Positions 14,435-32,000 of a stretch of DNA of 32,000 nucleotides are shown one piece after another. The notes below the pieces were generated by a model. That model was given only the letters and a program-made list of their open reading frames with translations. It did no database searches and had not been told where the DNA came from. The translations under genes were made by a program, and so were the position numbers. How positions within the stretch are numbered: the first letter of the stretch is position 1; each line of letters opens with the position of its first letter. The DNA is from Desulfocapsa sulfexigens DSM 10523. GTDB lineage: Bacteria; Desulfobacterota; Desulfobulbia; Desulfobulbales; Desulfocapsaceae. Where the stretch lies: the NCBI RefSeq assembly GCF_000341395.1, contig NC_020304.1:2970001-3002000 (forward strand), in the 5' to 3' direction.

Positions 14435-14441
14435 TTCTAAC

Positions 14442-16769: not shown

Positions 16770-17924
16770 ATGGGCACAGCAGAAAAATGTATCTGGTACA
16801 TTGAAGGTGGTATGAAGGATGGGAAATGTCTCGATGTCCCTATCCATGTATCACCTTTTTTTATTGGAAGAGATAAGGGGTGTCATCTTAGGGTGAAAGC
16901 TCCAGGTGTATCACGAAAACATGTTCAGCTTGAAGTCAATGGTGAAAAGATTTTTGTTGGAGATATGGGGAGTACCAATGGAACGTTTGTGAATCGTAAC
17001 AAAATTACAAGACAGGTTGAAATCAGATCTGGAGATACTATCCATCTGGGCCAGGAGGAACTCCGCATTACAAGGCGTTGTGATTACAAGAAAAATGATC
17101 CTGTTGCCGATGATATTTTGTATAATTCAACGATTATGATAAATATCAACGATCCGATGTTTGCCCTCAATGACGATTTTGTCCAGCAGGAAAAAGAGTT
17201 CAATCTTATGATAACCAACCGGGAGGTTACCATTGTTTTCCAACCGATAGTTTCCTTGTCTGAGTGCGAGGTTGTCGGTTATGAAGCGCTTGGGCGCGGT
17301 TTCAGAAGCGACCTTCCGGAGTCTCCCTGTGATCTGTTTCGGATCGCCGAAAAACTTGGCAGAGCAAAAGAATTAAGTTCAGTCTTCAGGAGCAGAGCAA
17401 TACAGACTTGTCATGAGCTTCCCGGTGCCCCGTTAATTTTTGTGAATACCCATCCTGTTGAAGACCTGACCACTGGACTTCAAAATAATATTGAAGAGAT
17501 GCGCAGGTTGACTGCTCCCTGGCAGGTGGTACTTGAGGTTCATGAGTCAGCAGTGACTGACACCAGAATGATGCTTGAGCTGAAGGAAATACTTCGAGAT
17601 CATGAAATGTATCTTGCCTATGATGATTTTGGTGCTGGGCAGGCAAGGTGGAATGAACTTGTGGAGGCTCCTCCAGATTATCTCAAATTTGACCTGCAAC
17701 TTATTAGGGACATTCATAAGAAAACAACACAAAAACAGGAAATGGTTCGTAAACTGGTTGATATCTGCCTTGATCAGGGTGCCTATCCATTAGCGGAATG
17801 TGTCGAAAACCATGAAGAACTGGAGGCCTGCAGGCATCTAGGCTTTACTCATGGGCAGGGATGGCTCTTTGGAAAACCAGCCGAAGCATCTTTTTTTGCA
17901 GCTACAAAAAATAAAAAGGCCTGA
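16770..17924 (+). CDS. FHA-domain / EAL-domain protein (putative c-di-GMP phosphodiesterase)
   Basis: FHA: 'FFIGRD..C.L......VSRKH.QL.....I.V.D.GSTNGTFVN'. EAL: 'FQPIV.....VVGYEALGR', 'FVNTHP', 'LEVHES', 'YDDFGAG', 'LKFD', 'AECVE', 'HGQGWLFGKP'. All catalytic signatures are present. The ORF opens with TTG at 16737. I prefer ATG 16770, which has GAGG 9 nt upstream. Confidence 0.85.
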   Translation: MGTAEKCIWYIEGGMKDGKCLDVPIHVSPFFIGRDKGCHLRVKAPGVSRKHVQLEVNGEKIFVGDMGSTNGTFVNRNKITRQVEIRSGDTIHLGQEELRITRRCDYKKNDPVADDILYNSTIMININDPMFALNDDFVQQEKEFNLMITNREVTIVFQPIVSLSECEVVGYEALGRGFRSDLPESPCDLFRIAEKLGRAKELSSVFRSRAIQTCHELPGAPLIFVNTHPVEDLTTGLQNNIEEMRRLTAPWQVVLEVHESAVTDTRMMLELKEILRDHEMYLAYDDFGAGQARWNELVEAPPDYLKFDLQLIRDIHKKTTQKQEMVRKLVDICLDQGAYPLAECVENHEELEACRHLGFTHGQGWLFGKPAEASFFAATKNKKA

Positions 17925-18170
17925 GTTGGTAGTTGTTTTGACTGTACATTCTCGAATTCTATAAGCCTTTAATATGAAGCTTTTATTATAGGTAAAGTGG
18001 TGTATAATAAAGATGTTTCTCAAAATTACCGCTTTTTGTATCTGTTAGCCCTGTAGACGGGGTGTTGCCTGTAGTGAATAATTTGGGAAGTAAGAGATCG
18101 TTTTGGTATACGTTTTTTTTTATAAATAATTAGATAAGAAATCTAAGATAAACTTTTTTAGGAGAACGTC

Positions 18171-19442
18171 ATGAAGAATAGGGCAGTTATTCGTTTTTGG
18201 GCAATGATGACAATCCTGTTTTACAGCACAGCCCTTGCTCAGGCAGGGCAGGTGATAACCCAGGGTGAAAGGTCATGGGCCAAACAAGCTGTGCAGCAGG
18301 AAAAGTCACTAGCTGCCGCCAGTTCCCCGAATTCTATTGCGGTACTTTATTTTAACAACAAGTCTGGTCAGGAAAAATTGAACGCTCTGCAAAAAGGTAT
18401 GGCGGTGATGTTGATTTCTGACCTTTCTAAGGTAGAAGAGATTCAGGTTGTTGAACGGGTGAGAATGCAGGCCCTTCTGGATGAGATGGCTCTGGGAGCT
18501 TCCGGTCTTGTTACTGCAGAGACCGCCCCTAAAGTTGGTAAAATGCTCGGTGCCTCCTATGTGGCAAGTGGAGATATCCTCGGTGGAAATACCCAGGAAA
18601 TTTTAATAGATTCTTCTGTTCTTGAAATAATTTTTGAAACCCTTACTCGGCAGCCCATAGCCAGTGGAGCGCTGGATGAACTCTTCAGGCTGGAAAAAGA
18701 GATCCTCTTCAATATTATTGCTCAGATGAGGGTGACCATTTCTCCGGCAAAAAAAATCGAACTCGAAAAGCCATTATCTGTCAGTACTGCAGCTTTGCTG
18801 GCATTGTTTCTTGGTATTGATTACTCCGACAAGGGACGGTATGCCGAGGCTGCCAATATGTACCAGCAGGCTCTGGTCGAGGATCCTAAACTGGAAATGG
18901 CCAGGAGTGCCTTGCAGGAACTCAGAGCAATGGGACTGTCCACTGCTGAGGAGCTAGCGATAGTGGAGGAAACACCTCCTGCACCTCCTTCTCCAGCTGT
19001 GGAAGCTGAAGGCTCTTCCGTTGGCACTGTTGTTCTGGTTGGTCTGGGTGCCGCAGCCATTGGTGGAGCGGTCTTTGCCTTATCAGGATCAGGTTCCAGT
19101 GATGATAATGGATCATCTGATGTCGTTACACCAGAAGTTGATACCACTGCACCAGTTGCTACCCCATCACCTGGTACCAGTGAAACTCTTGACTGCATGA
19201 GCGGGTCTGTTGCTTTTTCTTTTTCTAAATCGATGTCGGACGCTGGTTCTGCTGAAATCTCTCCTAAGGATTTTGCCGACAGCCAGGGATGGTTCGGGGA
19301 CAGTTATGTTATTTCATGGGGGAATGATACCTCCACGTGCAGTAGCAGTCTAACATCCGTACAAATTACTTTAAGAAATTTTGAAGATACGGACGGAAAC
19401 GCACTGGCTAACCCTACAGTGTTTGATTATTCAGTTGAATAA
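18171..19442 (+). CDS. Secreted CsgG/LpoB-like module + TPR-like + hydrophobic segment + Ig-like C-terminal domain protein
   Basis: Signal peptide 'FWAMMTILFYSTALAQA'. Module 'IAVLYFNNKSG...QVVERVRMQALLDEMALGASGLV..ETAPKVGKMLGASYV.SG'. TPR-like 'GRYAEAANMYQQALVEDP'. Hydrophobic 'VGTVVLVGLGAAAIGGAVFAL'. C-terminal 'VAFSFSKSM......ISW......QITL..FEDTDGNAL' resembles SbsA-type bacterial Ig-like domains. AGGAG RBS upstream. Confidence 0.7.
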   Translation: MKNRAVIRFWAMMTILFYSTALAQAGQVITQGERSWAKQAVQQEKSLAAASSPNSIAVLYFNNKSGQEKLNALQKGMAVMLISDLSKVEEIQVVERVRMQALLDEMALGASGLVTAETAPKVGKMLGASYVASGDILGGNTQEILIDSSVLEIIFETLTRQPIASGALDELFRLEKEILFNIIAQMRVTISPAKKIELEKPLSVSTAALLALFLGIDYSDKGRYAEAANMYQQALVEDPKLEMARSALQELRAMGLSTAEELAIVEETPPAPPSPAVEAEGSSVGTVVLVGLGAAAIGGAVFALSGSGSSDDNGSSDVVTPEVDTTAPVATPSPGTSETLDCMSGSVAFSFSKSMSDAGSAEISPKDFADSQGWFGDSYVISWGNDTSTCSSSLTSVQITLRNFEDTDGNALANPTVFDYSVE

Positions 19443-19460
19443 GCAATACGTCAAATAGAG

Positions 19461-19496
19461 TACCGGATTTCCAGGGGTTGTTGTGGAAATCCGGTA
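19461..19496. terminator. 12-bp perfect hairpin between convergent genes
   Basis: TACCGGATTTCC - 12-nt loop - GGAAATCCGGTA. It sits between the stop at 19442 (+) and the stop at 19508 (-). No strong T-run follows. Confidence 0.55.
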
Positions 19497-19507
19497 TGAA
19501 CTGTATT

Positions 19508-20020
19508 TTAGAAAAGTTGTGCTGTGACAGCTTCAACTGCAGCAAGCAGGGCTGAAACATTATCTGCCCTTATCGTATGGACGCCGGTTCGAACAACCGC
19601 TCCCGATGCGACTTCAATAAGGCGAAGATCGATTCGCAGTTGTTCTCCTACCTGTTGAAATCCACCAAAGACCATAAACTGGGCGCCAAGCAGGCGTCCA
19701 ACCTCAAGTCGGCTTGTCTCATCAACTAGCACAGAACTTCCAAGAGATAATTCCTCCAGTGCCAATACCAATTTTTCACGCTCGACAACGATGCATTCTC
19801 CTGACTCTTTCAGGGTTTCAGCAACCTTTGCGGTGAGGAATTCTTGCATGTCATCCAGGATCTGGTTTTCTGTAACGCTGTAATTCTCCAGATTCCAGAC
19901 TGCAACTACACTGCCACTGCCAAAGTATTCCGGTGTGTATTGTGGCTGTGAACCAGCACAGGCGTTAAGGAACATTGGCAGCAGCGATATGAACAAAAAG
20001 GGCCGCAACAACTTCTTCAT
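19508..20020 (-). CDS. Lipoprotein consisting of one CsgG/LpoB-like module
   Basis: Lipobox 'MFLNAC' (Cys21). Module 'VVAVWNLEN......IVVEREKLVLALEELSLGSSVLVDETSRLEVGRLLGAQFMVFG...LRIDLRLIEV'. The ATG overlaps the upstream stop by 4 nt. Confidence 0.75.
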   Translation of the reverse strand: MKKLLRPFLFISLLPMFLNACAGSQPQYTPEYFGSGSVVAVWNLENYSVTENQILDDMQEFLTAKVAETLKESGECIVVEREKLVLALEELSLGSSVLVDETSRLEVGRLLGAQFMVFGGFQQVGEQLRIDLRLIEVASGAVVRTGVHTIRADNVSALLAAVEAVTAQLF

Positions 20021-21984
20021 GATTTGTTTCCTTCTGTAGTTGTAAAGCTCAGCTTCTCCTGCACCTTGTCATCCTGTTGTAATGGTCGTTTGGCATCACG
20101 AATACTGACAACACTCATATCCGGTTCCACTTGAATGACTTCCAGCATAGCCAGTGTTTGAGGAAGTCCATGCAAGGTTTTACCTTTGTATTGTATTGGT
20201 TCACCTTCCATAATGGCTTCGAAAGATGATCCGAGAACAACCCCCTGATTTGTGCCGATATTGATAACAGCCTGGTCACCAGTGATCTGGACAATGAAAC
20301 CCTGTAGTGGATATTTCTCCATAATAGTCCGTAAAATCTCCTGGGTGACCTTTTCTGTTTCCTCTTCAATATTTCTGGCTCCGGTGGCAAGTTTCCTGGT
20401 TAATACTTTGGGGATAGCGGTTGTTTCGGTATCTATCAGGCGGAGACTCAGTAGAGTCTGGTCAGGCAAATGGAGCAGGGCACCGGTGGAAACGATCTTC
20501 GCGGCAAGAATACGACCGAGTTGGAGGGCGGTTTCCGGGTCAGCAAGTTCCGAAGAACCAAGGTTGAGTTCCTCAAGCAGGCGGTCCATCAGTACACGTT
20601 CCACCACTCGTACCCGTCCCGACTGGTTGAGTTGTTCTGCAAGTTGGGTAGTCAAAACCATTGATAATCCGTCTCGTTCGCTCAACCCTCCTTTTTCGTG
20701 GAAATCTACAAAAGAAAGGACCATTGGCCGTGAAGTCCAGTTATCTTTAGAATTGAAGAAGGGGATTACGGTTTCTTTGGAACGAAAGCGTGTGGCTAAT
20801 TCCTTGACTAATTTGTCGATGCGCTGTTTTTCAGAAGTGTTTTTCTGCAACTCCATCATGTCTTTTGTTTGCCTTGCAAGAACTGCAGAAAACTGGTCGT
20901 TTTTATTAATGGTCATGGCCTGCTGAAACATTTCCATGGCTTTATCAAGTTGCCCTTCTTTCTGGTAGGTCACTCCCTTATTGGACATAGCTACAAGATT
21001 ATAGGGATCAAGTTCTACCGTCTGGTCGTAGTTGATACGTGCCAGATCAAAATTTTCTGTACTGGCATAAAGCCTGCCAAGCTGGTTATGGGCCTCAGCT
21101 TTCTGACTCAGGCTTCCCTCCGGTTTAGTTACGGCCTCCTGATATTCTGCCATTGCTTCTTCTTTCTTATTTTGAGCGTAAAGGATGTCACCTTTAATAA
21201 CATTGACAGCACCACGACCCGGTGCTTTGGTTTCAACCTCGTTGGCTACGGCCATAGCTTTTTCAACATTGCCCTCTCTTGCATAAATTTTAGCAAGACC
21301 CTCTTTTCCGAGAATTTCACCTTCTCCAGGTTCCTGTGCCAGATCGTTAAAAATATCTTCCGCTTTATCTACTTCATCTGCCTTGAGAGCCGCGTAGCCA
21401 TAGACAGTTTTTGCCTCAAAGGAATCCGGGTTGTCGGACTGCACTTCCAGACTGATGGCCTGAGCCAAGAGAGGTTCGTTACGCTGTAATTCTCTTTCAG
21501 CGAGGCTGATCAACATTTTTTCAGTACTTTCTCCTCCTCCCTGAAAGGAATTAATGATCCTGCGTTCTGGTCCCAGGATATAGACTGTTGGAAGAATGAG
21601 TTCTGCGTGATATGTGGAACTGATTCCTTTTTGATCCTGCATCACCGGAAAACCTGCCTTATGGGTTACGATGAAATCTGAAACACTGTTTTTACTGGAA
21701 GTGGTAATACCCCATACCAGCAGGTCTGTATCCTTGAAGGAATTGAGAAGTTTGTTTAGAGTCAACAGTCCTTCCTGGCTGGCAGGAGAACTTGTATCAA
21801 AAAAATAAAGGACTATGAGAGAATGGTCTTTCATAGCTGAAAGTTGATAAGGACGGCCATAAACATCTTCCAGAGTGAAATCAGGGGCGACGTCACCTGG
21901 ATTGAACTGTGCCCGGCTTATTGCCGGATTCGTGAGAAGAAGTAGCAATGCTAAAAAGAGCAAAAGTTTGATTTGGTGGTGCAT
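20017..21984 (-). CDS. Secreted multidomain protein: Cys-less redoxin fold + TPR repeats + CsgG/LpoB-like module + C-terminal beta domain
   Basis: Signal peptide 'LLLFLALLLLLTNPAISRA'. AhpC/TSA-redoxin-like 'APDFTLEDVYG.PY.LS..K....VLYFF' carries 'DTSSPAS' where CxxC is expected. There are at least 5 TPR-like units (aa ~190-370). Module 'MVLSFVDF.....RVVERVLMDRLLEELNLGSSELADPETALQLGRILAAK'. C-terminal 'GFIVQITGDQAVINIGTNQGVVLGS.FE'. Confidence 0.75.
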   Translation of the reverse strand: MHHQIKLLLFLALLLLLTNPAISRAQFNPGDVAPDFTLEDVYGRPYQLSAMKDHSLIVLYFFDTSSPASQEGLLTLNKLLNSFKDTDLLVWGITTSSKNSVSDFIVTHKAGFPVMQDQKGISSTYHAELILPTVYILGPERRIINSFQGGGESTEKMLISLAERELQRNEPLLAQAISLEVQSDNPDSFEAKTVYGYAALKADEVDKAEDIFNDLAQEPGEGEILGKEGLAKIYAREGNVEKAMAVANEVETKAPGRGAVNVIKGDILYAQNKKEEAMAEYQEAVTKPEGSLSQKAEAHNQLGRLYASTENFDLARINYDQTVELDPYNLVAMSNKGVTYQKEGQLDKAMEMFQQAMTINKNDQFSAVLARQTKDMMELQKNTSEKQRIDKLVKELATRFRSKETVIPFFNSKDNWTSRPMVLSFVDFHEKGGLSERDGLSMVLTTQLAEQLNQSGRVRVVERVLMDRLLEELNLGSSELADPETALQLGRILAAKIVSTGALLHLPDQTLLSLRLIDTETTAIPKVLTRKLATGARNIEEETEKVTQEILRTIMEKYPLQGFIVQITGDQAVINIGTNQGVVLGSSFEAIMEGEPIQYKGKTLHGLPQTLAMLEVIQVEPDMSVVSIRDAKRPLQQDDKVQEKLSFTTTEGNKS

Positions 21985-22014
21985 GAGATCCTCCGTGTTG
22001 AATGTGTTTGTCAG

Positions 22015-23664
22015 CTATTCTGGTAAAAGAGAGATGGAGAGTGGAACCAGTCCTCCCTTGCTGAGGTTCAGCTGGGCCTGCCAGTTAAGATGTCCCTGCA
22101 GTTCAAGTTTCACCTCATGTTTTATTGCTGTAACCTCAATCTCCAGGGGGGTTAATCCATGATAGTTCCCGTCTATGTAGAGGCTTGCTCCAGATGGACT
22201 GCTGTTTATTTGTAAGGTTGTTATTTTTTTCTGGATATCGGAATTCTCTTCTTTTCCTATTGGTGGTAGTGAGGCTACTACTGTACCAGGCGTAATTGGT
22301 GACGAAGGTTTTAAGCTGCCATCTGGCTCAATTCCCAGTTCAACTTTTGTCAAGGAAGCTGGTTTCGTGGCAGTTTCAGGCTCGTTTGTGGAGGGAAAAA
22401 TTGGTGCATTCTCTCTGTCATCTGTAAAAAGATCGTCAAACGACTCTTCGACCCGTTGTGCCTGCAACGTTTCTTTTTTTATTTCTGGTACTGCATCGGG
22501 TACGGGAGAGGCTTCTTCAGAATCAGGTGATATAACGGGTGTGGGTGCCACAGATGATTGGGGGACGGAAGGTACATAAATCGGGGCAAGTGGTTCTTCA
22601 GGTTTACTTGGTAGTACTACCGGAGGAACGGGTGTGGTCTCCTCATCTTGCACAGCAATGTGCGAGGGCTGTTCCGATATTGCGGCCGTATTTTTTTGTT
22701 GCTGGACATCATCTGCTGTAGGTGGCCTCATGGTGAGATAAGCGACCAGGGCAGCTCCGCAGAAGAGGAGAGCGGTCGCTATCATAAAGCCGTTATAAGA
22801 ACGCCGTTTTTCAGGTGCTGTCTGAATAATTGTTTCGCTAAAAGATTCCTGAGATTGAACATTAAGACAGTTGCCAAGAAGTTCTGACATCTCCTGGCCA
22901 CTGCGGAATCGATCTTCAGGTTTTCTGGCCATGGCTTTCAGGATCAGCTTTGAGAGAGCCGGGGGGATATCAGGGTTGAGCTGATCCGGTGGAACAGGAT
23001 CATCCTGGGTGATGGCTCTAAAGACGGCAGTGAGGTTCTCACCCTTGAATGGACGATGACCTGTGGTGAGCTCATAGAGAATGACACCTAAAGAGTAAAG
23101 ATCGGATCGACCATCAACGGTTTGTCCCATGACCTGCTCAGGGGCCATATAGACAGGGGTACCAAGGATCTCACCGGCTCGAGTCATCTGCTGACCATCC
23201 GGATCATCGATATGGGCAATCCCAAAGTCTGTTACCTTAAGAATATTTTCAGGAGTACAGATAATATTTGGCGGTTTGATATCACGGTGAATGATCCCTC
23301 TTGTATGTGCATAATGGAGGGCCTGGGCTATCTGTATTCCGATATCAACGATGTCGGTCAGGCTTAAATTGCCAGCTTTGACCAGTTGATCCATGGATTG
23401 CCCTTCCAGAAATTCCATCGCAATGTAGATGGTGCCGTGATCCTGGCCAATATCATAGACTGTCACTATGCCTGGATGGGAGAGTCGTCCAATGGCGGTA
23501 GCTTCTTTGAGAAAACGCTGCACGTAGTCCTCGGTGGTAAGTCGATCTTCACGAAGTACCTTCAGTGCCACCATACGGTTAATCTGAGGGTCATGGGCCT
23601 GATAAACCTTACCCATGGCACCTCTACCGAGTTCGGAAACGATTTCATACCTACCGTATTTCAT
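22015..23664 (-). CDS. Hanks-type Ser/Thr protein kinase with TM helix and periplasmic PEGA domain (PpkA analogue)
   Basis: 'LGRGAMGKVY', 'VALKVL', 'HRDIKPPNI', 'DFGIA', 'GTPVYMAPEQ', 'D.YSLGV.LYE'. TM 'FMIATALLFCGAALVAYLTM'. Pro-rich linker. C-terminal PEGA 'LQINSSPSGASLYIDGNYHGLTPLEIEV'. Confidence 0.9.
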   Translation of the reverse strand: MKYGRYEIVSELGRGAMGKVYQAHDPQINRMVALKVLREDRLTTEDYVQRFLKEATAIGRLSHPGIVTVYDIGQDHGTIYIAMEFLEGQSMDQLVKAGNLSLTDIVDIGIQIAQALHYAHTRGIIHRDIKPPNIICTPENILKVTDFGIAHIDDPDGQQMTRAGEILGTPVYMAPEQVMGQTVDGRSDLYSLGVILYELTTGHRPFKGENLTAVFRAITQDDPVPPDQLNPDIPPALSKLILKAMARKPEDRFRSGQEMSELLGNCLNVQSQESFSETIIQTAPEKRRSYNGFMIATALLFCGAALVAYLTMRPPTADDVQQQKNTAAISEQPSHIAVQDEETTPVPPVVLPSKPEEPLAPIYVPSVPQSSVAPTPVISPDSEEASPVPDAVPEIKKETLQAQRVEESFDDLFTDDRENAPIFPSTNEPETATKPASLTKVELGIEPDGSLKPSSPITPGTVVASLPPIGKEENSDIQKKITTLQINSSPSGASLYIDGNYHGLTPLEIEVTAIKHEVKLELQGHLNWQAQLNLSKGGLVPLSISLLPE

Positions 23665-26703: not shown

Positions 26704-26793
26704 CTATCTTGTTTTTGAGATCTACTCAAAATGTACCGTGTAACAAATACAATATCTCCGTCAGTTCAAGAATAACTCAGCAAGGAGGCCTGC

Positions 26794-28362
26794 ATGGAAC
26801 AGATATCTATTCCAGATTTCCCTTTTTCCATTCTTGCACTTGCACCGTTTACTTCAGAAGTAAATCCTGGTGTGACCGTCAAACTTCTTGCAGTTGATCC
26901 TTTGGATATTGATCAGGCACTAACTGCGTTGATGCCATCTTTTTTTCTCTCTCTCCCAGTTGCAGAATGTCCTGCCGGTGGGCTTCATCTTCGATTCAGG
27001 AAAATGCGCGATTTCACCCCTGACGGTCTTTTGCAGAGTCAACCATATCTTGAGAATTTGCTTGCCGCTCATCGTTTCTGCCTTGAGGCTGAACAGCAAA
27101 AGAAGTCTACAGAGGTAATTATTGAAGGAGTTAAGAAGTGGCCTGATCTACCCCCGATCTCACTGACTCAGAAAAAAAAGGACGAGGAAGAAAAAAAGAG
27201 TTCCCTGGAGAGTATTTTATCCATGGTGGCTTTGCCGGAAGAAGACAGTTCAGTCAAGGGAGCCACTGCAGGAGGAACTGGATTTTATGGCGCACTGGCC
27301 CGTAAAATTCTAGACAGCATCTATACCGATCCAATATTTCGATCCCTTGAGTCCTGCTGGCAGGGTTTGCGATATCTCGGTCGCCATCTTGCTGAGGCTG
27401 GTGGTCGTTTGTCAATATTACCGATATCTCATAATAACATTGAAAAAGTCCTGGATGAACAAAGAGAAGAGATCATACTTGATCCTCCTTCTGTCATTCT
27501 TGTTGATCAGCCCTTAAGCAGTTCAGAGAGATCCGTGCAAATGATGACTCAGCTCGCTTCCTTTGGCCAGGAGATGCTTGTACCTGTGCTTACCTGGTTG
27601 GATGCTTCGTTTTTCCAGATTGAAAATTGGAAGAATCTTGATAGCCTTTCTTTTCTTCCCCACCACTTGGAAAAAGCATCCTTTGCCAGGTATAAAGGTT
27701 TGCAGAATTCCGATTTGAGTCGCTGGATAGGGTTGAGCTGCAATCGTTTTGGGACTCGTTTCCCCTATGGGCCTGAGAACCGATCACGCCTTCTTCCTTT
27801 CAGGGAAAAGGAGATGCTCTGGCTCTCTTCGGTATGGGGAGTTGCAGCTCTTATGGCTTCCCGCGTAAGGCAAACCGGATGGCCAACGGGTATGGCCTCA
27901 TCACGGCAGATCTGTCTGGAAGATTTGGCTCTTGCCCTGGAAGGTTCGGTTGAACAAAGTCCGCTTGAGGTACAATGGAGTGAAAGTCGGCTGGAACAGG
28001 TTTCCCGTTGCGGCATTATGGCGCTGGCCGGATGGAAGGGAAGGGATAGCGCTTTTCTTGCCGGTGATGTCATGGCCTCGACGGATAGTAGTTTGAGTTA
28101 TCAGACCTTGCTTTGCAGAGTGAGCCACTTTATCCTCTGGTGTCGGGACAATTGGCAGGAACCTTTGCTGGCAGATGAATTGGCTAGTCGATTGCACACT
28201 GCCTTTCAACTGTTTACCAAAAAACAGGGGGAGTATCCTGTTGGTGATTTTGGGGTGGAGTGTCACGATGATAAAGGGGCTATTCAGGTCTTGTTTCGAT
28301 GGATCCCTTCCAGGCACATTCTCCCCAGCGGACAGGAGATAGTGCTGGAGTTTGGCTGGTAA
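26794..28362 (+). CDS. Fused TssB(VipA)-like / TssC(VipB)-like T6SS contractile-sheath protein
   Basis: aa 5-100 track VipA: 'DFPFSILALAPFT' vs 'ELPLKVLMLGDFT', and 'LHLRFRKMRDFTPDGLL...L.NLL' vs 'VDLNFESMNDFSPESVV'. aa ~165-522 track VipB: 'FRSLESCWQGLRYL' vs 'FQAMESAWRGLKLF', 'RWIGLSCNRFGTRFPYGPEN' vs 'RYLGLTAPRFLLRVPYDPIEN', 'LWLSSVWGVAALMA', 'TGWP', 'E...SRCGIMAL....GRDSAFLAG', 'CRVSHFILWCRDNW'. A Lys/Glu-rich linker (KKKDEEEKK) joins the two parts. AAGGAGG RBS upstream. VipA/VipB comparisons are from memory. Confidence 0.65.
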   Translation: MEQISIPDFPFSILALAPFTSEVNPGVTVKLLAVDPLDIDQALTALMPSFFLSLPVAECPAGGLHLRFRKMRDFTPDGLLQSQPYLENLLAAHRFCLEAEQQKKSTEVIIEGVKKWPDLPPISLTQKKKDEEEKKSSLESILSMVALPEEDSSVKGATAGGTGFYGALARKILDSIYTDPIFRSLESCWQGLRYLGRHLAEAGGRLSILPISHNNIEKVLDEQREEIILDPPSVILVDQPLSSSERSVQMMTQLASFGQEMLVPVLTWLDASFFQIENWKNLDSLSFLPHHLEKASFARYKGLQNSDLSRWIGLSCNRFGTRFPYGPENRSRLLPFREKEMLWLSSVWGVAALMASRVRQTGWPTGMASSRQICLEDLALALEGSVEQSPLEVQWSESRLEQVSRCGIMALAGWKGRDSAFLAGDVMASTDSSLSYQTLLCRVSHFILWCRDNWQEPLLADELASRLHTAFQLFTKKQGEYPVGDFGVECHDDKGAIQVLFRWIPSRHILPSGQEIVLEFGW

Positions 28363-28407
28363 CCCGTTGTTCGGCTCCAGTTTTTTACCACTGAGAGTAA
28401 ATGAGAA

Positions 28408-29175
28408 TCAGCCGGCCGGGTTTCGCAACTGCTGTTGCAGAAGATCTGGCATATTGTCGATGGCATCCCTGCTGACAATTTCCTGGAAGGCAGGAATACC
28501 AGAGAGCTGGGTCACCTCGGTAATAAATTTATCAGGTGGCAGGAAGGTTGATAATGGTGTGCTGATCATAACTGCCGGAAGATTGCCAAGATCTGGTAAT
28601 TTGTAAATATCTACCTGATAGCGAAGATCTTCAAGCAAGGTCTTCAGATTTGGAAAATGTTCCAGTAGCAGAACTAGACTGAGGTGGCAGATTATGGCCT
28701 GGCGCATATCTTCAGTCTGACGAGCCTCCTTGCCACTCAGCATACCTCGCAGACGATCCAGGGGACATTCGCTCTGATAAGAAACGATGAAACGGGTAGG
28801 TGAGGTGATGGTAATGGCTTTTGCATCGCTACCATCAATGGTCAGTTCATACTGCAGCGGGGTGCATTCAAGAACATTGGAAATGGCTGGTAGCGGTGGC
28901 TGGAGTTTCCTGGGGAGTTGAAATGGTGATTCGCAGAGGGCACTGAAACTTTCCTGCAGTTCTGCAAATGCTTTGTCTGAACCATGGGTCTCCTGTTGAG
29001 AGGCACTTTTAATGTAGGTTCCGAGGAGTTTACGTGGAATGAAGAGCGGTCGCAGGGTGCTGAGATGGTCTCTCAGGCGTTGACCCAGAAAGGAGCTGAT
29101 CTTATCGGTTGCCTGTCGGAGTTCAAGGAATTCCTGGCTGTCCAGATCGGTGCGGGGAATGTTGAGTTCAGTCAT
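28408..29175 (-). CDS. Hypothetical protein (no recognisable domain), last gene of the vgrG operon
   Basis: Long uninterrupted frame with no TM or signal peptide. ATG at 29175 is preferred. The ORF-track start at 29217 is a TTG that overlaps the upstream gene. The composition looks coding and no competing ORF exists. Confidence 0.55.
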   Translation of the reverse strand: MTELNIPRTDLDSQEFLELRQATDKISSFLGQRLRDHLSTLRPLFIPRKLLGTYIKSASQQETHGSDKAFAELQESFSALCESPFQLPRKLQPPLPAISNVLECTPLQYELTIDGSDAKAITITSPTRFIVSYQSECPLDRLRGMLSGKEARQTEDMRQAIICHLSLVLLLEHFPNLKTLLEDLRYQVDIYKLPDLGNLPAVMISTPLSTFLPPDKFITEVTQLSGIPAFQEIVSRDAIDNMPDLLQQQLRNPAG

Positions 29176-29200
29176 AGTATTTTCTCTTTTGTGTTGTAGG

Positions 29201-29980
29201 CTATTGTAATGAAACAATAAATGCCTCGGTTTCCTCTTCAGAAGAGTAAGGGCAGAACATTATTTTTTTCGGTGACCCTGCAACCTTTAGATAATAGGAA
29301 CTGGACGAATCGATTTCATTTTGCACTCCCCAGGCCGTAAACTTTTGATCACCCATTGTTATTTCCAAGCCCTGCTGCGGGTAGTTGAGGACTGTCTTTT
29401 CAGGGAGTTGACCAGCTGGACCGACAGCGTGGAGTTTGATTTCACCATCGCTGACCCCAAAAATTGCACCCTTCCAGTTCCCTTTTAAGGGGCCCACTTC
29501 AAACCATTGACCGATGTTGGGGATGCCATAGACATCCATCCTGTACTCTGACTGGATCTTGTGCAGCGGCGTATGGACGATGGCTATCAGCTTGGCTGCG
29601 TAGGATTCGTTTGCAAGTGGTAAAATCTTTACATTGGCGAAGGGTGTAGGCAGGGTGTCTGGCTGTATAGTATCTTCTCCGATTTGGAGAATAACAATAG
29701 GAAAGTCCTGGCCCCGTTCTGCCTGCACTCCAAGAGCCAGCATTGCCAGTCCGTAACGGAAGCTTGGCTGCTGAAGACTTTCAGCTGAAGTTACTAGCAG
29801 CCACATGGAAACATTGTGATCGACCAATTGCTTACGGGGTGCTGCCCAGGCCATTTTGTCGAGGTCATCTGTAAAGAAGTGACCATCTGCAGCGAGGCCA
29901 TAGCTCTGCAGTTTGCCCATAACCGACTGAACCGTTTCCTGGGAACAGTTGAATGCACTGAGCCATATTTTTTTCTGCAT
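29201..29980 (-). CDS. Hypothetical protein; N-terminal flavodoxin/TIR-like alpha-beta segment (tentative) + beta-rich C-terminal domain
   Basis: ATG at 29980 sits 7 nt after the upstream stop, with AGGA overlapping that stop. The ORF-track start at 30052 is a TTG inside the upstream gene. 'KIWLSAF......V..V...L...GL...GHFF.DD......W......L.....MWLLVTS..S' loosely follows a TIR-like/DUF1863 pattern. I see no catalytic signature. Confidence 0.55.
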   Translation of the reverse strand: MQKKIWLSAFNCSQETVQSVMGKLQSYGLAADGHFFTDDLDKMAWAAPRKQLVDHNVSMWLLVTSAESLQQPSFRYGLAMLALGVQAERGQDFPIVILQIGEDTIQPDTLPTPFANVKILPLANESYAAKLIAIVHTPLHKIQSEYRMDVYGIPNIGQWFEVGPLKGNWKGAIFGVSDGEIKLHAVGPAGQLPEKTVLNYPQQGLEITMGDQKFTAWGVQNEIDSSSSYYLKVAGSPKKIMFCPYSSEEETEAFIVSLQ

Positions 29981-29987
29981 GGTATTC

Positions 29988-31454
29988 CTATTTTGCCGCA
30001 ATAATGAGCGGATTGTCAAAATCAAAGCCAAAGAGACCGGGGTTTTCTCCAATCACTGCCGCTGAAAAAATGTAGAACACATAGTCATAGGTTTGTTCGG
30101 GTATTTTATCACGATACTGTTTAAAAAACTGCCAGAAATTACGTTCTTTTGGATTATTCGGCATATCTCTCACAAGTTGAATAACGCGGTTTTCTCCCCA
30201 GTTGTACGAGGCCATTACCAATAGCCCGGAGGCCTGAGCATCGGTATCGTAAATTTTTCGCAGGTACTTTGCTGCGGCCACGGTTGATTTGGCAAAATTA
30301 TGCCGCTCGTCAAGGGGATCTACCTTTCGTTGCTTAAAAAGGGGACCTGTTTGCAGGCCATATCGAGAGCCGGTTTCAGGAATGAATTGCCACATACCTT
30401 TGGCAATACCCCAGCGGGTTTTAGGGCCCAGGGCATTTACGTTAAAATTACTTTCCTGCAGAGCCAGATAAAAGAACTGTGGTGGGAGAAAATAATAGCG
30501 CATGGTTCTGGCAATTGGAGAAGTGTAGCCATTGTTTTCTGCGCGTTCCAGGGCGTTAACAAGACGGCTGCTTGACTGCCACTTCTTGATGTAGCGTATG
30601 ACTTCACTGGTAAAGTCAGCAGGAACAAATATTTCACATTCACCAAAAATTCTCGCAGTTTTTAGAATTGCCTCTTCCTGGGGACTGATATTTTTATAGA
30701 TCCCGAGAGTGTCGACAAATTCGCTATAGCTGTTTTCCAACTCTCTTGCCTGCTGTTTATAATATTCTACCCTGGCAATGGTAGCAGTGTCATCACTGTC
30801 TCGTGCTGTTTGAAGAACATCTGCAAACTCTACTTCCAGTCCTTTCATGGTATAGAAGATTTCAGCAGCGAGTTTTTTTTGTTTCTCAACCTGCAGATGC
30901 ATGTAGATGGCAACTGAGCCAGCAATACAAAAAAGGCAGGTAACCAGGCCAATGATGATACCATACTTTCTTTTCTGTTTTTTCTGAACCTGGGCAAAGG
31001 CACGTCTAACCATTATGGTGTGCTCACCTGCGTCCCCGTCATCCTTATCACCGAAATAATGTTCCTGATAGTGGGACATGGATCGTGGAGTTCCAGGCTT
31101 TTTAGTTTCCTGGAAAGGCTGGTCAACCGACAGTGTAAGGAGTGGCCCGTTTCTTCCCAGTTCAATCCTGGTCAGTTTTTTAATGGCAATGCGATTAACC
31201 CGGTTACCGTCAACAAAAATACCATTGGCACTATTACAGTCTTGAATCCACCAGGTGTCTGCCAGAAAAATTACCTCGGCATGGTGGCGACTGACTACCG
31301 GATCGGTAATAGCTATATCACAGTCGGGATCACGACCGACACGAAAAGAGGAGGAAAATGCGCGTTCTGCAAACTGTCCGGCTGGCCATGTTGCTGAGAC
31401 TAAAACAGCTGGAGGTGACGAATTCTGCCCGTTATTTTCCAGCCTTTGAATCAT
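29988..31454 (-). CDS. FHA domain - TM helix - lytic transglycosylase (SLT family) protein
   Basis: FHA: 'FRVGRDPDCDIAI.D..VSRHHAEV.......IQD.NSANGIFVDG'. TM: 'YGIIIGLVTCLFCIAGSVAIYMHL'. SLT: 'LALQESNFN.NA.....GIAKGMWQFIPETG..YGL', 'D.LDERHNF.KST.AAAKYL', 'MASYNWGENRV', with the catalytic Glu in 'QES'. Confidence 0.8.
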   Translation of the reverse strand: MIQRLENNGQNSSPPAVLVSATWPAGQFAERAFSSSFRVGRDPDCDIAITDPVVSRHHAEVIFLADTWWIQDCNSANGIFVDGNRVNRIAIKKLTRIELGRNGPLLTLSVDQPFQETKKPGTPRSMSHYQEHYFGDKDDGDAGEHTIMVRRAFAQVQKKQKRKYGIIIGLVTCLFCIAGSVAIYMHLQVEKQKKLAAEIFYTMKGLEVEFADVLQTARDSDDTATIARVEYYKQQARELENSYSEFVDTLGIYKNISPQEEAILKTARIFGECEIFVPADFTSEVIRYIKKWQSSSRLVNALERAENNGYTSPIARTMRYYFLPPQFFYLALQESNFNVNALGPKTRWGIAKGMWQFIPETGSRYGLQTGPLFKQRKVDPLDERHNFAKSTVAAAKYLRKIYDTDAQASGLLVMASYNWGENRVIQLVRDMPNNPKERNFWQFFKQYRDKIPEQTYDYVFYIFSAAVIGENPGLFGFDFDNPLIIAAK

Positions 31455-31463
31455 ATCAATTGA

Positions 31464-31871
31464 TTAGGGTGCTAACAAAAGGACTTTGGTTTGGCTGGGT
31501 ACTATCCTCATACCAGGAACATTTGTACCATTCTGCAGAGTTGGACTTGTCAGCCGTGTCGCTGGTTTTCCCTGGAAAAGCACGGTAAACGATCCTGCTA
31601 GATGCCGTGAAGGCCCCATGACTCTGCCAGAGGCTACTCCCATGGAGACACCTGCATTGTCACCATTGGTCATGGGGGTGACCGTTCCCATGTTATGAGC
31701 TGGCATTCCCATGATAAGAATTTTCGTACATGCGGTACCAGGATTTGCTGTGGGTCCCATTGCAATATTCGGATAAGGAATAGGTACAGGCGCAGGTGCT
31801 GGTGGAGCAGGGGTTAAACAAACGTCAGGAAAAGCAAAATCCTGACCCATCATTTGTGAATTGGCAAACAT
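31464..31871 (-). CDS. Stand-alone PAAR-like (DUF4150-type) T6SS spike-tip protein
   Basis: 'FPDVCLTP.......PIPYPNIA', 'T..KILI.G.PA.N......MT.GD..G...GV.SG...G......GS..V...GKP..RL.......NG.N..G' is the DUF4150/PAAR-like pattern. GAGGAGG RBS upstream. It starts 12 nt after the upstream stop. Confidence 0.75.
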   Translation of the reverse strand: MFANSQMMGQDFAFPDVCLTPAPPAPAPVPIPYPNIAMGPTANPGTACTKILIMGMPAHNMGTVTPMTNGDNAGVSMGVASGRVMGPSRHLAGSFTVLFQGKPATRLTSPTLQNGTNVPGMRIVPSQTKVLLLAP

Positions 31872-31883
31872 TATTATCCTCCT

Positions 31884-32000
31884 CTAACCCATATGGATCA
31901 TTTTCCCATCAATCTTTATATTTTCTTTTGCAGTAACAACAGAATATTTGCCACGTAAGGACATCAGTCTTTCTGCATTGTAATCGATCTTACCAGCCTT
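31884..32000 (-). CDS. 3' end of a VgrG / phage-spike-like gene (partial, runs off the window)
   Basis: Hand translation of the minus strand gives ...KAGKIDYNAERLMSLRGKYSVVTAKENIKIDGKMIHMG*. The alternating beta-helix-like ending 'IKIDG..I..G' and the position directly upstream of a PAAR-like gene fit a VgrG C-terminus. Only 38 codons are visible. Confidence 0.4.
   Translation of the reverse strand, partial: KAGKIDYNAERLMSLRGKYSVVTAKENIKIDGKMIHMG

What the first reader, a model, noticed from the sequence alone, without database searches (positions are those of the whole stretch)
16770..32000. Overall: an STK/PP2C/FHA signalling island organised around a pared-down T6SS-like module with novel accessories
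Within 15 kb there is one Hanks kinase, one PP2C and four FHA domains in three proteins. Each FHA protein has a different output: EAL, membrane-anchored reader + pseudo-reader, or SLT hydrolase. There is also a periplasmic S1 protease and three proteins sharing a CsgG/LpoB-like module, one of them with a dead redoxin. The only T6SS-type structural genes are a fused TssBC, a PAAR-like cap and a VgrG end. Hcp, TssE/F/G/K, TssJ/L/M, TssA and ClpV are not in the window. My hypothesis has three steps. An envelope signal is sensed by the CsgG-like/TPR/protease set. The kinase then phosphorylates targets read by the FHA proteins. Those proteins in turn coordinate PG opening, c-di-GMP turnover and assembly of an unusual sheath. 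The rest of a conventional T6SS may lie upstream of vgrG, off-window. In that case the novelty is confined to the accessories and the sheath fusion.
Basis: inference. Interest (0 to 1): 0.75.

Follow-up and report, generated by a model that had tools for sequence, protein, structure and literature searches.

The report
T6SS regulatory arm with extra sheath-like protein
This region is not a stripped-down secretion machine but the accessory and regulatory end of an ordinary, complete type VI secretion gene cluster, and its one unusual part is a conserved, uncharacterised single-chain copy of the contractile sheath protein that always sits next to a phospho-threonine-reader protein.

Summary
The domain inventory is real: one Hanks kinase, one PP2C, four FHA domains in three proteins, EAL, SLT, an S1 protease, three CsgG/LpoB-like proteins (one with a cysteine-free redoxin), a TssB–TssC-like single chain and a PAAR-like protein. 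One call is wrong. The gene running off the window end is TvpC (DUF3540, a VgrG mimic), not VgrG.

The window is from Desulfocapsa sulfexigens DSM 10523. The "pared-down T6SS" reading is refuted. Near-identical strains have ClpV–VgrG–TvpAB–TvpB just upstream. A syntenic relative has the full TssJKLM–TssA–TssB–TssC–Hcp–TssEFG–ClpV–VgrG set upstream, with separate tssB and tssC.

The window therefore holds two things:
- the end of a class III Tvp spike-loading module;
- an 11-gene module that travels together in other Desulfobacterota, a variant of the PpkA/PppA/Fha threonine-phosphorylation pathway.

FHA-EAL is not part of the conserved set.

The new element is the 522-aa sheath paralogue. It has the sheath fold but lacks the TssB N-terminal inter-subunit linker and most of sheath domain 3. 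It evolves fast. A tandem FHA (reader plus pseudo-reader) gene sits directly upstream of it in all 7 distinct neighbourhoods. Its function is inferred only.

The parts
16737..17924 (+). FHA–EAL protein (395 aa). It neighbours the module but is not a conserved member.
   Evidence: Pfam FHA 7e-19 and EAL 4e-41. EAL, DDFG and KFD motifs are present. No orthologue lies next to the module in L006 or L031.
18171..19442 (+). Signal peptide, CsgG/LpoB-like domain, TPR, a TM (286-304) and an S/T-rich C-terminal region (423 aa).
   Evidence: Pfam CsgG 4e-10, LpoB and TPR. TM found. Orthologues in L006 (68% identity) and L031 (56%).
19508..20020 (-). CsgG/LpoB-like lipoprotein (170 aa).
   Evidence: Pfam CsgG 7e-8 and LpoB 1.5e-6. 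A lipobox-like LNAC is present. Orthologues in L006 (64%) and L031 (59%).
20017..21984 (-). Periplasmic protein (655 aa) made of a cysteine-free AhpC/redoxin domain, TPR repeats, a CsgG/LpoB-like domain and FlgT_C.
   Evidence: No Cys in the whole protein. Orthologues at 80%, 63% and 46% identity in L006, L031 and L030.
22015..23664 (-). Hanks Ser/Thr kinase, TM (292-310) and a periplasmic PEGA domain (549 aa). It is the PpkA/TagE analogue.
   Evidence: Pkinase 1.8e-54 and PEGA 9e-14. VAxK, HRD, DFG and APE motifs. Conserved in L006, L027, L031 and L030.
23661..24602 (-). Secreted S1 (Trypsin_2) serine protease (313 aa).
   Evidence: Trypsin_2 7e-19. His168, Asp198 and Ser-containing GSSGS motifs. 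It always lies between PP2C and the kinase.
24599..25339 (-). PP2C phosphatase (246 aa). It is the PppA/TagG analogue.
   Evidence: PP2C_2 1e-14 and PP2C 4e-12. DGMGG, DG and DN motifs. Divergent from the FHA/sheath-like operon in the window, L006, L027, L031 and L036.
25681..26703 (+). TagH-like tandem FHA protein (340 aa): a canonical FHA1, a P/S/T-rich linker, a degenerate but highly conserved FHA2, and a C-terminal TM anchor.
   Evidence: Pfam finds two FHA stretches, 1e-24. The best NCBIfam hit is TIGR03354 TagH, 66 bits against a cutoff of 120. Residue analysis across 6 homologues. TM 319-337. An FHA gene lies directly upstream of the sheath-like gene in all 7 distinct neighbourhoods; the L030 copy is fragmented.
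26794..28362 (+). Single-chain TssB–TssC-like sheath paralogue (522 aa, UWK_02690).
   Evidence: Pfam VipB 7e-28 and VipA 0.0025. Across the family 50 of 50 match VipB and 45 of 50 match VipA. AF2 pLDDT 88, pTM 0.87. Foldseek top hits are T6SS sheath TssC chains, E 1e-17, TMt up to 0.74. By hhalign, residues 1-99 align to TssB 22-126 and residues 165-477 to TssC 75-435.
28408..29175 (-). Unknown cytoplasmic protein 'unk255' (255 aa by the start used in relatives; the ORF could start at 29217).
   Evidence: No Pfam, NCBIfam, PADLOC or PDB-sequence match. Identity is 79-84% in L006 and L027 and 64% in L031.
29201..29980 (-). Unknown T6SS-associated protein 'unk259' (259 aa; the ORF could start at 30052).
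   Evidence: No family match. Homologues lie after PAAR (L029), after a VgrG in Ca. Electrothrix (L026) and just upstream of tssJ in Desulfovermiculus (L022/L023). The single-sequence model is poor, pLDDT 48.
29988..31454 (-). FHA (cytoplasmic), TM (165-183) and a periplasmic SLT lytic transglycosylase (488 aa).
   Evidence: FHA 3e-18 and SLT 7.5e-15. The catalytic E-S motif sits in LALQESN. Orthologues at 63-74% identity in L025, L027 and L031.
31464..31871 (-). PAAR-like DUF4150 spike tip (135 aa), the Paar1 equivalent of a class III Tvp module.
   Evidence: Tox-PAAR-like 5.5e-40. Orthologues at 93-94% identity in L025, L026 and L027.
31884..32000 (-). The last 38 codons of TvpC (DUF3540, 216 aa), a VgrG mimic of the spike pre-complex. 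It is not VgrG.
   Evidence: DUF3540 2.9e-12, profile positions 162-199 of 199. The full gene is in L001 and L003. Role as described in PMC13373197.

Best explanation
The region is the downstream accessory and regulatory arm of a canonical, complete T6SS-i gene cluster of Desulfocapsa sulfexigens.

Part 1, 31464-32000. This is the end of a class III Tvp spike-loading module: vgrG, tvpAB (DUF2169 plus pentapeptide repeats), tvpB, tvpC (DUF3540) and paar (DUF4150). The module pre-assembles the PAAR tip on a VgrG mimic and then hands it to VgrG.

Part 2, 18171-31454. This is an 11-gene module that moves as a unit in Desulfobulbales-like Desulfobacterota. It is a lineage-specific version of the T6SS threonine-phosphorylation pathway.
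- Input (inferred): envelope proteins lie next to a membrane Hanks kinase with a periplasmic PEGA domain. They are two CsgG/LpoB-like proteins, a cysteine-free redoxin–TPR–CsgG-like protein and a secreted S1 protease.
- Reset (inferred from family): PP2C reverses the phosphorylation.
- Read-out (inferred): a TagH-like membrane-anchored tandem FHA protein, and an FHA–TM–SLT protein that would bring a lytic transglycosylase to the phosphorylated site so that peptidoglycan is opened where the machine assembles.
- Sheath paralogue: the tandem-FHA gene is always followed by a 520-aa single-chain sheath paralogue. It keeps the sheath core fold. It lacks the TssB N-terminal inter-subunit linker, the TssB C-terminal helices and the first ~74 residues of TssC (the surface domain 3). 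My most likely reading (inference) is that it cannot build a normal contractile lattice by itself. Instead it would dock at an end of the TssB/TssC polymer, or on baseplate or tube partners. There it would act as a phospho-regulated, membrane-tethered nucleator, cap or stopper of sheath assembly.

FHA-EAL is a neighbour and not a demonstrated member.
For: - Source organism: the 522-aa protein is 100% identical to UWK_02690.
- Same or near-identical strains: L002/L005 share 100% DNA identity with window 26623-32000. L004 shares 99.8% and L003 99.1%.
- L003 shows TvpAB–TvpB–TvpC–PAAR.
- L024 comes from the same sample as L004 and has a TvpAB 100% identical to that of L003. It shows a ClpV C-terminal part (84% identical to a bona fide ClpV), then VgrG, then TvpAB.
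- Syntenic relative scaffold_52 carries TssJ-K-L-M-TssA-TssB(162 aa)-TssC(494 aa, VipB+VipB_2)-Hcp-TssE-F-G-ClpV-VgrG-TvpAB-TvpB-TvpC-PAAR-FHA/SLT-259-255 ... TssBC-like-FHA-PP2C-Trypsin-STK-Redoxin/TPR-CsgG-CsgG/TPR.
- The same order is seen in L027.
- The whole module is present in L031.
- Identities are tabulated.
- Tvp class III definition: PMC13373197 and PMC11883445.
- TPP precedent and the peptidoglycan-remodelling precedents TagX and MltE: PMC13584744.
- Sheath homology and the missing parts.
- The ORF cannot extend upstream, because the ORF listing starts each ORF at the first start codon after a stop.
- Reader plus pseudo-reader architecture is conserved in 6 of 6 homologues.
- An FHA gene lies directly upstream of the sheath-like gene in the window, L006, L027, L029, L030, L031 and L036.
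- The paralogue evolves faster than the real sheath. Listed canonical TssC homologues stay at 80-96% identity. TssBC-like identities are 31-59%.
Against: - The D. sulfexigens chromosome beyond position 32000 could not be fetched. Full-core adjacency is shown only in a relative (51% identity for the TssBC-like protein, 72% for VgrG). For near-identical strains only ClpV and VgrG are shown.
- No phosphorylation, localisation or interaction data exist. The roles of the envelope proteins, the protease, the two unknown proteins and the sheath paralogue are inference.
- In L031 the module is not next to spike or core genes within 10 kb. In L029 and L036 the FHA/sheath-like pair occurs without the kinase set nearby. 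The module is therefore separable, and its dependence on T6SS is not proven.
- Loss of the N-terminal linker is inferred from alignment, not from a lattice model.
Confidence: 0.72

Rival explanations
1. First reader's headline. The window encodes an autonomous, pared-down T6SS-like apparatus whose sheath is the fused TssBC. It works with only PAAR and VgrG-type parts plus novel accessories.
For: Inside the window no Hcp, TssE/F/G/K/J/L/M/A or ClpV is present. The 522-aa protein has the sheath fold.
Against: A full canonical core with separate TssB and TssC lies directly upstream in the syntenic relative. ClpV and VgrG lie upstream in near-identical strains. The paralogue lacks the N-terminal inter-subunit linker and domain 3. 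The supposed VgrG is TvpC.
Confidence: 0.03
2. The kinase, PP2C, protease, CsgG-like proteins, FHA proteins and sheath-like protein form a self-standing envelope-signalling and cell-wall-remodelling system. It merely tends to sit beside T6SS genes. The sheath-derived protein has been exapted as a cytoplasmic scaffold unrelated to T6SS firing.
For: In L031 the complete module is flanked by unrelated genes (an RdgC-like gene, DivIC and an SNF2 helicase) and not by spike or core genes. In L036 the PP2C, FHA-FHA and sheath-like genes sit among unrelated genes. The paralogue evolves much faster than TssC.
Against: In the window and 4 of the 6 other neighbourhoods the pair or module abuts T6SS spike genes (window, scaffold_52, L027, L029, L030). 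unk259 homologues sit next to vgrG or tssJ in genomes sampled independently. The best NCBIfam match of the tandem FHA is TagH. Peptidoglycan-active partners (SLT, or LysM plus deacetylase) fit T6SS envelope passage. L031 and L036 show only ±10 kb or a contig end, so a T6SS elsewhere in those genomes is not excluded.
Confidence: 0.15
3. The 522-aa protein is an alternative, polymerising sheath subunit. It co-assembles with or replaces TssB/TssC to build a second kind of sheath on the shared baseplate, for example one that is independent of ClpV.
For: The core fold, the C-terminal strand and the invariant terminal Trp are conserved. A longer fused subfamily (600-645 aa) with complete VipA, VipB and VipB_2 domains exists elsewhere. 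Single-chain T6SS-type sheaths are therefore plausible.
Against: The segment equivalent to the TssB N-terminal linker, needed to interconnect subunits (PMC5797969), is absent across the 520-aa subfamily. Low sequence conservation is atypical for a lattice-forming protein. The obligatory pairing with an FHA protein suggests regulation rather than bulk structure.
Confidence: 0.1

Closest known systems
T6SS threonine-phosphorylation pathway (PpkA/TagE, PppA/TagG, Fha1/TagH, with TagQRST or RtkS as inputs) of P. aeruginosa H1-T6SS, Serratia and Agrobacterium
   Same: A membrane Hanks kinase, a PP2C and an FHA protein are encoded in a T6SS cluster. The best NCBIfam hit of the FHA protein is TagH. 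The logic is that of post-translational control of assembly (PMC13584744).
   Different: No TagF, TagQ, TagR, TagS, TagT or RtkS homologue was seen. The periplasmic part of the kinase is a PEGA domain. The co-travelling envelope set is CsgG/LpoB-like lipoproteins, a Cys-less redoxin–TPR protein and an S1 protease. The FHA protein is tandem (reader plus pseudo-reader) and tail-anchored. A second FHA is fused to an SLT. A sheath paralogue is part of the module.
Class III Tvp spike accessory system (TvpAB, TvpB, TvpC, Paar1) of Serratia marcescens Db10 (PMC13373197); 'synteny type C' of DUF2169 loci (PMC11883445)
   Same: The gene order is vgrG, DUF2169+pentapeptide, pentapeptide, DUF3540, DUF4150. 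The window holds the DUF4150 gene and the last 38 codons of the DUF3540 gene.
   Different: It is found in Desulfobacterota, not Proteobacteria, and is only 27-35% identical to the Sorangium and gammaproteobacterial TvpAB found. No experimental data exist here.
TssB/TssC (VipA/VipB, HsiB/HsiC) contractile sheath
   Same: The fold matches (Foldseek E 1e-17, TMt 0.64-0.74 to 3j9g, 5urw, 5n8n). There are Pfam VipA and VipB matches. The order B then C is the same as in the two-gene sheath.
   Different: It is one polypeptide of 522 aa against 162+494 aa. It lacks TssB 1-21 (N-terminal linker strand), TssB 127-162 and TssC 1-74 (domain 3, where ClpV binds in V. cholerae; that last point is my own knowledge). 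It is replaced there by a disordered linker with one conserved short motif. There is no Pfam VipB_2 hit. TIGR03355 scores 72 bits against a cutoff of 271.5. It coexists with a canonical TssB/TssC.
Position-specific sheath paralogues of extracellular contractile injection systems (Afp2/3/4, Pvc2/3/4) and T6SS end-binding factors (TssA cap, TagA stopper)
   Same: The shared idea is that a sheath-fold or end-binding protein occupies a defined place at an end of the polymer and controls its assembly. Weaker Foldseek hits reach Afp, PVC and Streptomyces CIS sheath chains.
   Different: No T6SS is known to me to use a third sheath-fold protein. TssA and TagA are not sheath-fold proteins. The functional analogy is untested.
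T6SS peptidoglycan remodellers TagX (L,D-endopeptidase) and MltE (lytic transglycosylase recruited by the membrane complex)
   Same: A membrane-anchored periplasmic cell-wall hydrolase is associated with a T6SS (PMC13584744). The SLT domain has its catalytic Glu.
   Different: Here the hydrolase carries its own cytoplasmic FHA domain. Recruitment would then be phospho-dependent rather than through TssM. No paper describing such a fusion was found.

Membership tests
Canonical T6SS-i gene cluster | All core genes present: TssA, B, C, Hcp, E, F, G, ClpV, VgrG, J, K, L, M and PAAR | tested here: met
   Met in the syntenic relative scaffold_52. For strains 99-100% identical to the window only ClpV, VgrG and PAAR could be shown. 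The D. sulfexigens chromosome itself could not be fetched.
Canonical T6SS-i gene cluster | Core structural genes lie inside the finding's coordinates (16770-32000) | tested here: not met
   Only PAAR-like, the TvpC end and the sheath paralogue lie in the window. The core is off-window.
TssB/TssC sheath (VipA/VipB) | Sheath fold and VipA + VipB N-domain homology | tested here: met
   Foldseek E 8e-18 to 3j9g and TMt 0.74 to 5urw. hhalign probability 96.6% to TssB and 99.7% to TssC. VipB hits in 50 of 50 and VipA in 45 of 50 family members.
TssB/TssC sheath (VipA/VipB) | Passes the curated equivalog threshold for TssC (TIGR03355) | tested here: not met
   71.8 bits against a cutoff of 271.5.
TssB/TssC sheath (VipA/VipB) | N-terminal inter-subunit linker of TssB, and the domain 3 elements (TssB C-terminal helices, TssC N-terminal ~70 residues) | tested here: not met
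   The alignment starts at TssB residue 22 and stops at 126. The TssC alignment starts at residue 75. The ORF has no room upstream. Residues 126-162 are disordered.
TssB/TssC sheath (VipA/VipB) | Polymerises around Hcp into a contractile tube that ClpV recycles | not testable with these tools
   Needs purification, cryo-EM or live imaging.
VgrG (for the gene at the window end) | Phage_GPD / Phage_base_V (gp27/gp5) domains | tested here: not met
   The fragment matches the C-terminal end of DUF3540. The complete 216-aa gene has only DUF3540. The real VgrG (762 aa) lies three genes further upstream.
Class III Tvp accessory system | vgrG followed by DUF2169+pentapeptide (TvpAB), pentapeptide (TvpB), DUF3540 (TvpC) and DUF4150 PAAR | tested here: met
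   Seen in L003 and L024 for near-identical strains and in L025, L027 and L029 for relatives. The definition comes from PMC13373197.
Class III Tvp accessory system | TvpAB/TvpB/TvpC/PAAR pre-complex, with VgrG replacing TvpC | not testable with these tools
   Biochemical. No complex modelling was available.
T6SS threonine-phosphorylation pathway (TagE/TagG/TagH) | Hanks kinase, PP2C and FHA protein encoded with a T6SS | tested here: met
   Catalytic motifs are intact.
T6SS threonine-phosphorylation pathway (TagE/TagG/TagH) | FHA protein is a TagH equivalog (TIGR03354) | tested here: not met
   It is the best hit, but at 66.2 bits against a cutoff of 120.25. The architecture also differs: tandem FHA plus a TM.
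T6SS threonine-phosphorylation pathway (TagE/TagG/TagH) | Kinase-dependent phosphorylation of the FHA protein or TssL triggers assembly | not testable with these tools
   Needs phosphoproteomics and mutants.
FHA domain (second domain of the 340-aa protein) | pThr-binding residues Arg (GR), Ser/His (SxxH) and Asn (NG[ST]) | tested here: not met
   The positions read GS / LDHH / TGR in the window protein. They are non-canonical in all 6 homologues, while FHA1 keeps all of them.
Thiol peroxidase / redoxin (AhpC-TSA) | Catalytic cysteine(s) | tested here: not met
   The 655-aa protein has no cysteine despite an AhpC-TSA fold match of 1e-15.

The most novel reading that the evidence does not exclude
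The ~520-aa single-chain sheath paralogue, which lacks the N-terminal linker and domain 3, together with its obligatory tandem-FHA partner forms a new class of T6SS accessory. It would be a sheath-fold protein tethered to the membrane and switched by Thr phosphorylation. It would dock on one end of the TssB/TssC polymer (or on the baseplate or tube) to nucleate, cap or arrest sheath growth. An FHA-fused lytic transglycosylase would open the wall at the same phosphorylated site. A conserved linker motif (D-x-I-L-x-M-V-A-L-P, residues 139-148) may be a remnant of the ClpV-binding helix of TssC.
Probability: 0.3. Interest if true: 0.75.

Novelty: new variant of a known kind. Interest (0 to 1): 0.55.

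Why it matters
How T6SS sheath polymerisation is started, stopped and positioned is only partly understood. The known players (TssA, TagA, TagB/J, TagH) are not sheath-fold proteins.

A conserved sheath-derived protein is genetically locked to a phospho-threonine reader and to a kinase/phosphatase pair. At E ≤ 1e-30 its profile recovers 653 clusters at 50% identity, and about 130 of the top-listed ones are full-length ~520-aa proteins. Such a protein would give a direct, testable handle on assembly control in a phylum where T6SS biology is essentially unstudied (sulfur-cycling Desulfobacterota, including relatives of cable bacteria).

The FHA–SLT fusion suggests a simple way to couple cytoplasmic signalling to local cell-wall opening.

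For annotation, the work shows three things:
- 'TssC' calls of ~520 aa in these genomes are not the functional sheath.
- DUF3540 fragments should not be read as VgrG.
- FHA-EAL should not be counted in the module.

Tried and rejected
- The genome-contig scan with TvpAB did not return D. sulfexigens. It returned only distant Sorangium, gammaproteobacterial and Desulfovermiculus loci. The true sequence beyond 32000 was therefore never read.
- Exact look-ups of window proteins found only short metagenome contigs.
- The metagenome-contig scan with the redoxin/TPR protein gave one useful locus at 98% identity and three spurious TPR hits. It added nothing on co-occurrence.
The single-sequence model was poor, with pLDDT 48. 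Its Foldseek hits are generic Rossmann/flavodoxin-like folds, some to TIR domains of SPARTA, at E ≥ 8e-4, and I treat them as inconclusive.
- unk255 and unk259 gave no Pfam, NCBIfam, PADLOC or PDB-sequence matches. They are not paralogues of each other.
- A sigma-54 promoter pattern and sigma-70/terminator scans gave nothing above background in the relevant intergenic regions.
- Literature searches found no paper describing natural TssB–TssC fusions, T6SS in Desulfocapsa, or FHA–SLT fusions.
- I considered that the fusion was a frameshift or annotation artefact and rejected it. The ORF is continuous, and about 130 representatives share the same length and architecture.

Full report
**Observation.**
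- FHA–EAL, 16737-17924.
- A signal-peptide CsgG/LpoB-like + TPR protein, 18171-19442.
- A CsgG/LpoB-like lipoprotein, 19508-20020.
- An AhpC/redoxin–TPR–CsgG-like–FlgT_C protein, 20017-21984. It has no cysteine at all, so the redoxin is dead.
- A Hanks kinase with one TM and a periplasmic PEGA domain, 22015-23664.
- A secreted Trypsin_2 protease, 23661-24602.
- A PP2C, 24599-25339.
- A tandem-FHA protein with a C-terminal TM, 25681-26703.
- A 522-aa protein with VipB and weak VipA matches, 26794-28362.
- Two proteins without any family match, 28408-29175 and 29201-29980.
- FHA–TM–SLT, 29988-31454.
- A Tox-PAAR-like (DUF4150) protein, 31464-31871.

Catalytic and ligand motifs are intact in the kinase, PP2C, protease, EAL, SLT and three of the four FHA domains. 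The second FHA of the tandem protein has lost the Arg, Ser and Asn positions.

One item is wrong. The gene end at 31884-32000 matches the last 38 positions of DUF3540 (2.9e-12), not VgrG. The rest of the window (1-16700) is housekeeping: ArgJ, a ParA-like ATPase, MFS, an aminotransferase, a MORN protein, M20, GCS2, GGT, FeoB and CDF.

**Source and what lies beyond the window.**
The 522-aa protein is 100% identical to UWK_02690 of Desulfocapsa sulfexigens DSM 10523. The chromosome itself could not be retrieved.

Metagenome contigs from the same or near-identical strains overlap the window end:
- L002/L005: 100% DNA identity over 26623-32000.
- L004: 99.8%.
- L003: 99.1%.

L003 shows DUF2169+pentapeptide (855 aa), a pentapeptide protein (351 aa), DUF3540 (216 aa) and then PAAR-like. 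L024 comes from the same sample as L004, and its TvpAB is 100% identical to that of L003. It shows a 473-aa ClpV C-terminal part (84% identical to a bona fide ClpV), then VgrG (762 aa), then TvpAB.

This is exactly the class III Tvp arrangement described in 2025-2026. There TvpC (DUF3540) is a VgrG mimic in a PAAR pre-complex (PMC13373197, PMC11883445).

**The adjacent canonical T6SS.**
The best long relative is ENA scaffold_52, 143 kb. Its identities to the window are 51% for the TssBC-like protein, 80% for redoxin/TPR and 73% for FHA-SLT. It carries the island in the same order.

Directly upstream it carries TssJ, K, L, M, TssA, TssB (162 aa), TssC (494 aa, VipB+VipB_2), Hcp, TssE, F, G, ClpV, VgrG, TvpAB, TvpB, TvpC and PAAR. 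L027 (59% TssBC-like identity) shows the same order from VgrG to the kinase. In Desulfovermiculus a homologue of the 259-aa unknown sits just upstream of tssJ-K-L-M, an AMIN-domain gene, vgrG and the tvp genes.

The 'pared-down' reading is therefore refuted.

**Which genes travel together.**
- Eleven genes keep their order in the window, scaffold_52 and L031 (40% TssBC-like identity), and in L027 as far as that contig is visible. They are CsgG/TPR, the lipoprotein, redoxin/TPR, kinase, protease, PP2C, tandem FHA, TssBC-like, unk255, unk259 and FHA-SLT.
- In L031 the module is not flanked by spike or core genes, so it is a separable unit.
- More distant members keep smaller cores. L036 has PP2C, the tandem FHA and the TssBC-like gene. 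L029 has ClpV–VgrG–Tvp–PAAR–unk259 convergent with the tandem FHA and TssBC-like genes, and carries TPR/LysM and polysaccharide deacetylase genes instead of FHA-SLT. L030 has the kinase set plus a second kinase, with LysM/TPR and deacetylase.
- An FHA gene lies directly upstream of the sheath-like gene in all 7 distinct neighbourhoods. The L030 copy is fragmented.
- FHA-EAL has no orthologue next to the module in L006 or L031. I treat it as a neighbour.

**The sheath paralogue.**
- An AF2 model built from 50 family members is confident: pLDDT 88, pTM 0.87, disordered only at 126-162.
- Foldseek against the PDB returns T6SS sheath TssC chains first: 3j9g, 5urw/5urx, 5myu, 5n8n, 3j9o and 9n4v, at E 8e-18 to 9e-12 and TMt up to 0.74. 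Phage, pyocin and eCIS sheaths follow.
- Profile alignment to the canonical TssB and TssC of scaffold_52 places residues 1-99 on TssB 22-126 (probability 96.6%) and residues 165-477 on TssC 75-435 (99.7%). The model's C-terminal hairpin and terminal strand (484-522) are the expected counterpart of the TssC C-terminus.
- Three segments are missing: TssB 1-21, TssB 127-162 and TssC 1-74. The ORF cannot extend upstream.
[quoted passage not shown] A protein without that segment should not build a normal lattice. This step is inference.
- The linker carries one conserved short motif, D-x-I-L-x-M-V-A-L-P, with L142 invariant. It loosely resembles the N-terminal SLLEEITQAT of the canonical TssC, which in V. 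cholerae is the ClpV-binding helix (my own knowledge). This is speculative.
- The paralogue is poorly conserved, at 31-59% identity, whereas the listed canonical TssC homologues stay at 80-96%.
- The family is large. There are 653 representatives at E ≤ 1e-30, and about 130 of the top-listed ones are full-length ~520-aa proteins. A second fused subfamily of 600-645 aa retains complete VipA, VipB and VipB_2 domains, for example in Ca. Poribacteria.
- No paper describing such proteins was found.

**The tandem FHA partner.**
Six homologues share an invariant canonical FHA1 (GR, SRxH, NGT), a variable P/S/T-rich linker, and a second domain that lacks the pThr-binding residues. That second domain has its own invariant motifs: IQYG.TL, CD..L.H, DLTG and GP.F.FLG.GRLAE.

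Closer relatives end in a TM helix. Distant ones end in a basic tail. The best NCBIfam hit is TagH, below threshold.

**Mechanism.**
- Shown: gene content, domain integrity, fold, synteny and adjacency to a canonical T6SS.
- From established knowledge of the T6SS threonine-phosphorylation pathway (PMC13584744): the kinase activates assembly, PP2C reverses it, and the FHA protein reads the signal.
- Inferred: the CsgG/LpoB-like, TPR and protease set provides the envelope input to the PEGA-domain kinase. FHA–TM–SLT is recruited to a pThr site and opens peptidoglycan locally, by analogy with TagX and MltE. The tail-anchored tandem FHA holds or releases the sheath paralogue, which acts at an end of the sheath or on the baseplate or tube as a nucleator, cap or stopper.

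**Rivals.**
- An independent envelope-signalling system with an exapted sheath fold, supported by L031 and L036: 0.15.
- A genuinely polymerising alternative sheath: 0.10.
- The original pared-down apparatus: 0.03.

**Comparison and novelty.**
The Tvp part is an already known kind. The kinase/PP2C/FHA control of T6SS is known in principle. The new elements are:
- the specific composition of the module;
- the FHA-fused lytic transglycosylase;
- the two highly conserved unknown proteins;
- above all, a third sheath-fold protein locked to a reader/pseudo-reader FHA protein.

I rate it a new variant of a known kind. The interest is moderate, and it rests on the sheath paralogue and not on the 'island' as framed.

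**Limits.**
- The actual D. sulfexigens sequence upstream of tvpC was not read.
- unk255 and unk259 remain without fold assignment.
- Promoter scans were uninformative.
- No functional data exist.

Noticed in passing
Proteins P0433-P0467 (no locus); e.g. Ca. Poribacteria HGE70899.1: A second, longer subfamily (600-645 aa) of natural single-chain TssB–TssC fusions has full VipA + VipB (+VipB_2) Pfam matches. They are annotated only as 'sheath large subunit'. Whether these replace separate tssB/tssC genes is unknown.
   Followed up: partly
L026 1-22589 (Ca. Electrothrix aarhusensis CALNZH020000002.1): A cable-bacterium locus has three vgrG islands in 22 kb, two Tvp class III sets and two adjacent DUF3540 genes. 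A homologue of unk259 lies right after a 938-aa VgrG. Toxin-antitoxin genes and an IS110 transposase lie between the islands.
   Followed up: partly
window 28408-29175: The unknown 255-aa protein is 79-84% identical between genomes whose sheath paralogue is only 51-59% identical. Its first ~60 residues are nearly invariant across the three sequences compared. No family, fold or paralogy to unk259 was found.
   Followed up: partly
window 18171-19442: The CsgG/LpoB-like + TPR protein has a signal peptide and also an internal TM helix (residues 286-304). A ~120-residue S/T-rich C-terminal part follows, and its L031 orthologue gives a faint Big_5 hit there. The topology is unclear.
   Followed up: no
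L006 11593-18487 (scaffold_52): In the relative, a sigma-54 activator, a 1303-aa MFS/acyltransferase/AMP-ligase fusion, an alpha/beta hydrolase and a 150-aa unknown are inserted inside the module, between the sheath paralogue and unk255.
   Followed up: no
L030 4314-5531: The most distant neighbourhood carries a second Hanks kinase (405 aa, no PEGA) immediately next to PP2C. A transglutaminase-core protein lies after the sheath paralogue.
   Followed up: no
L028 1-1044: Two genes without Pfam hits (441 and 249 aa) precede tssJ in the canonical cluster of the relative. The 249-aa one is not a detectable homologue of unk259, although in Desulfovermiculus an unk259 homologue occupies that position.
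   Followed up: partly
window 4913-6709: A 598-aa protein has ten MORN repeats (2.9e-98). It lies in an otherwise metabolic stretch and is followed by a DUF4177 protein.
   Followed up: no
window 7126-11003: Three adjacent genes encode an M20 peptidase, a GCS2-type glutamate-cysteine ligase and a gamma-glutamyltranspeptidase. Together they suggest a gamma-glutamyl peptide metabolism operon.
   Followed up: no
window 16737-17924: The FHA–EAL protein has intact EAL, DDFG and KFD motifs and a canonical FHA. It could link Thr phosphorylation to c-di-GMP turnover, but it is not conserved beside the module in L006 or L031.
   Followed up: partly
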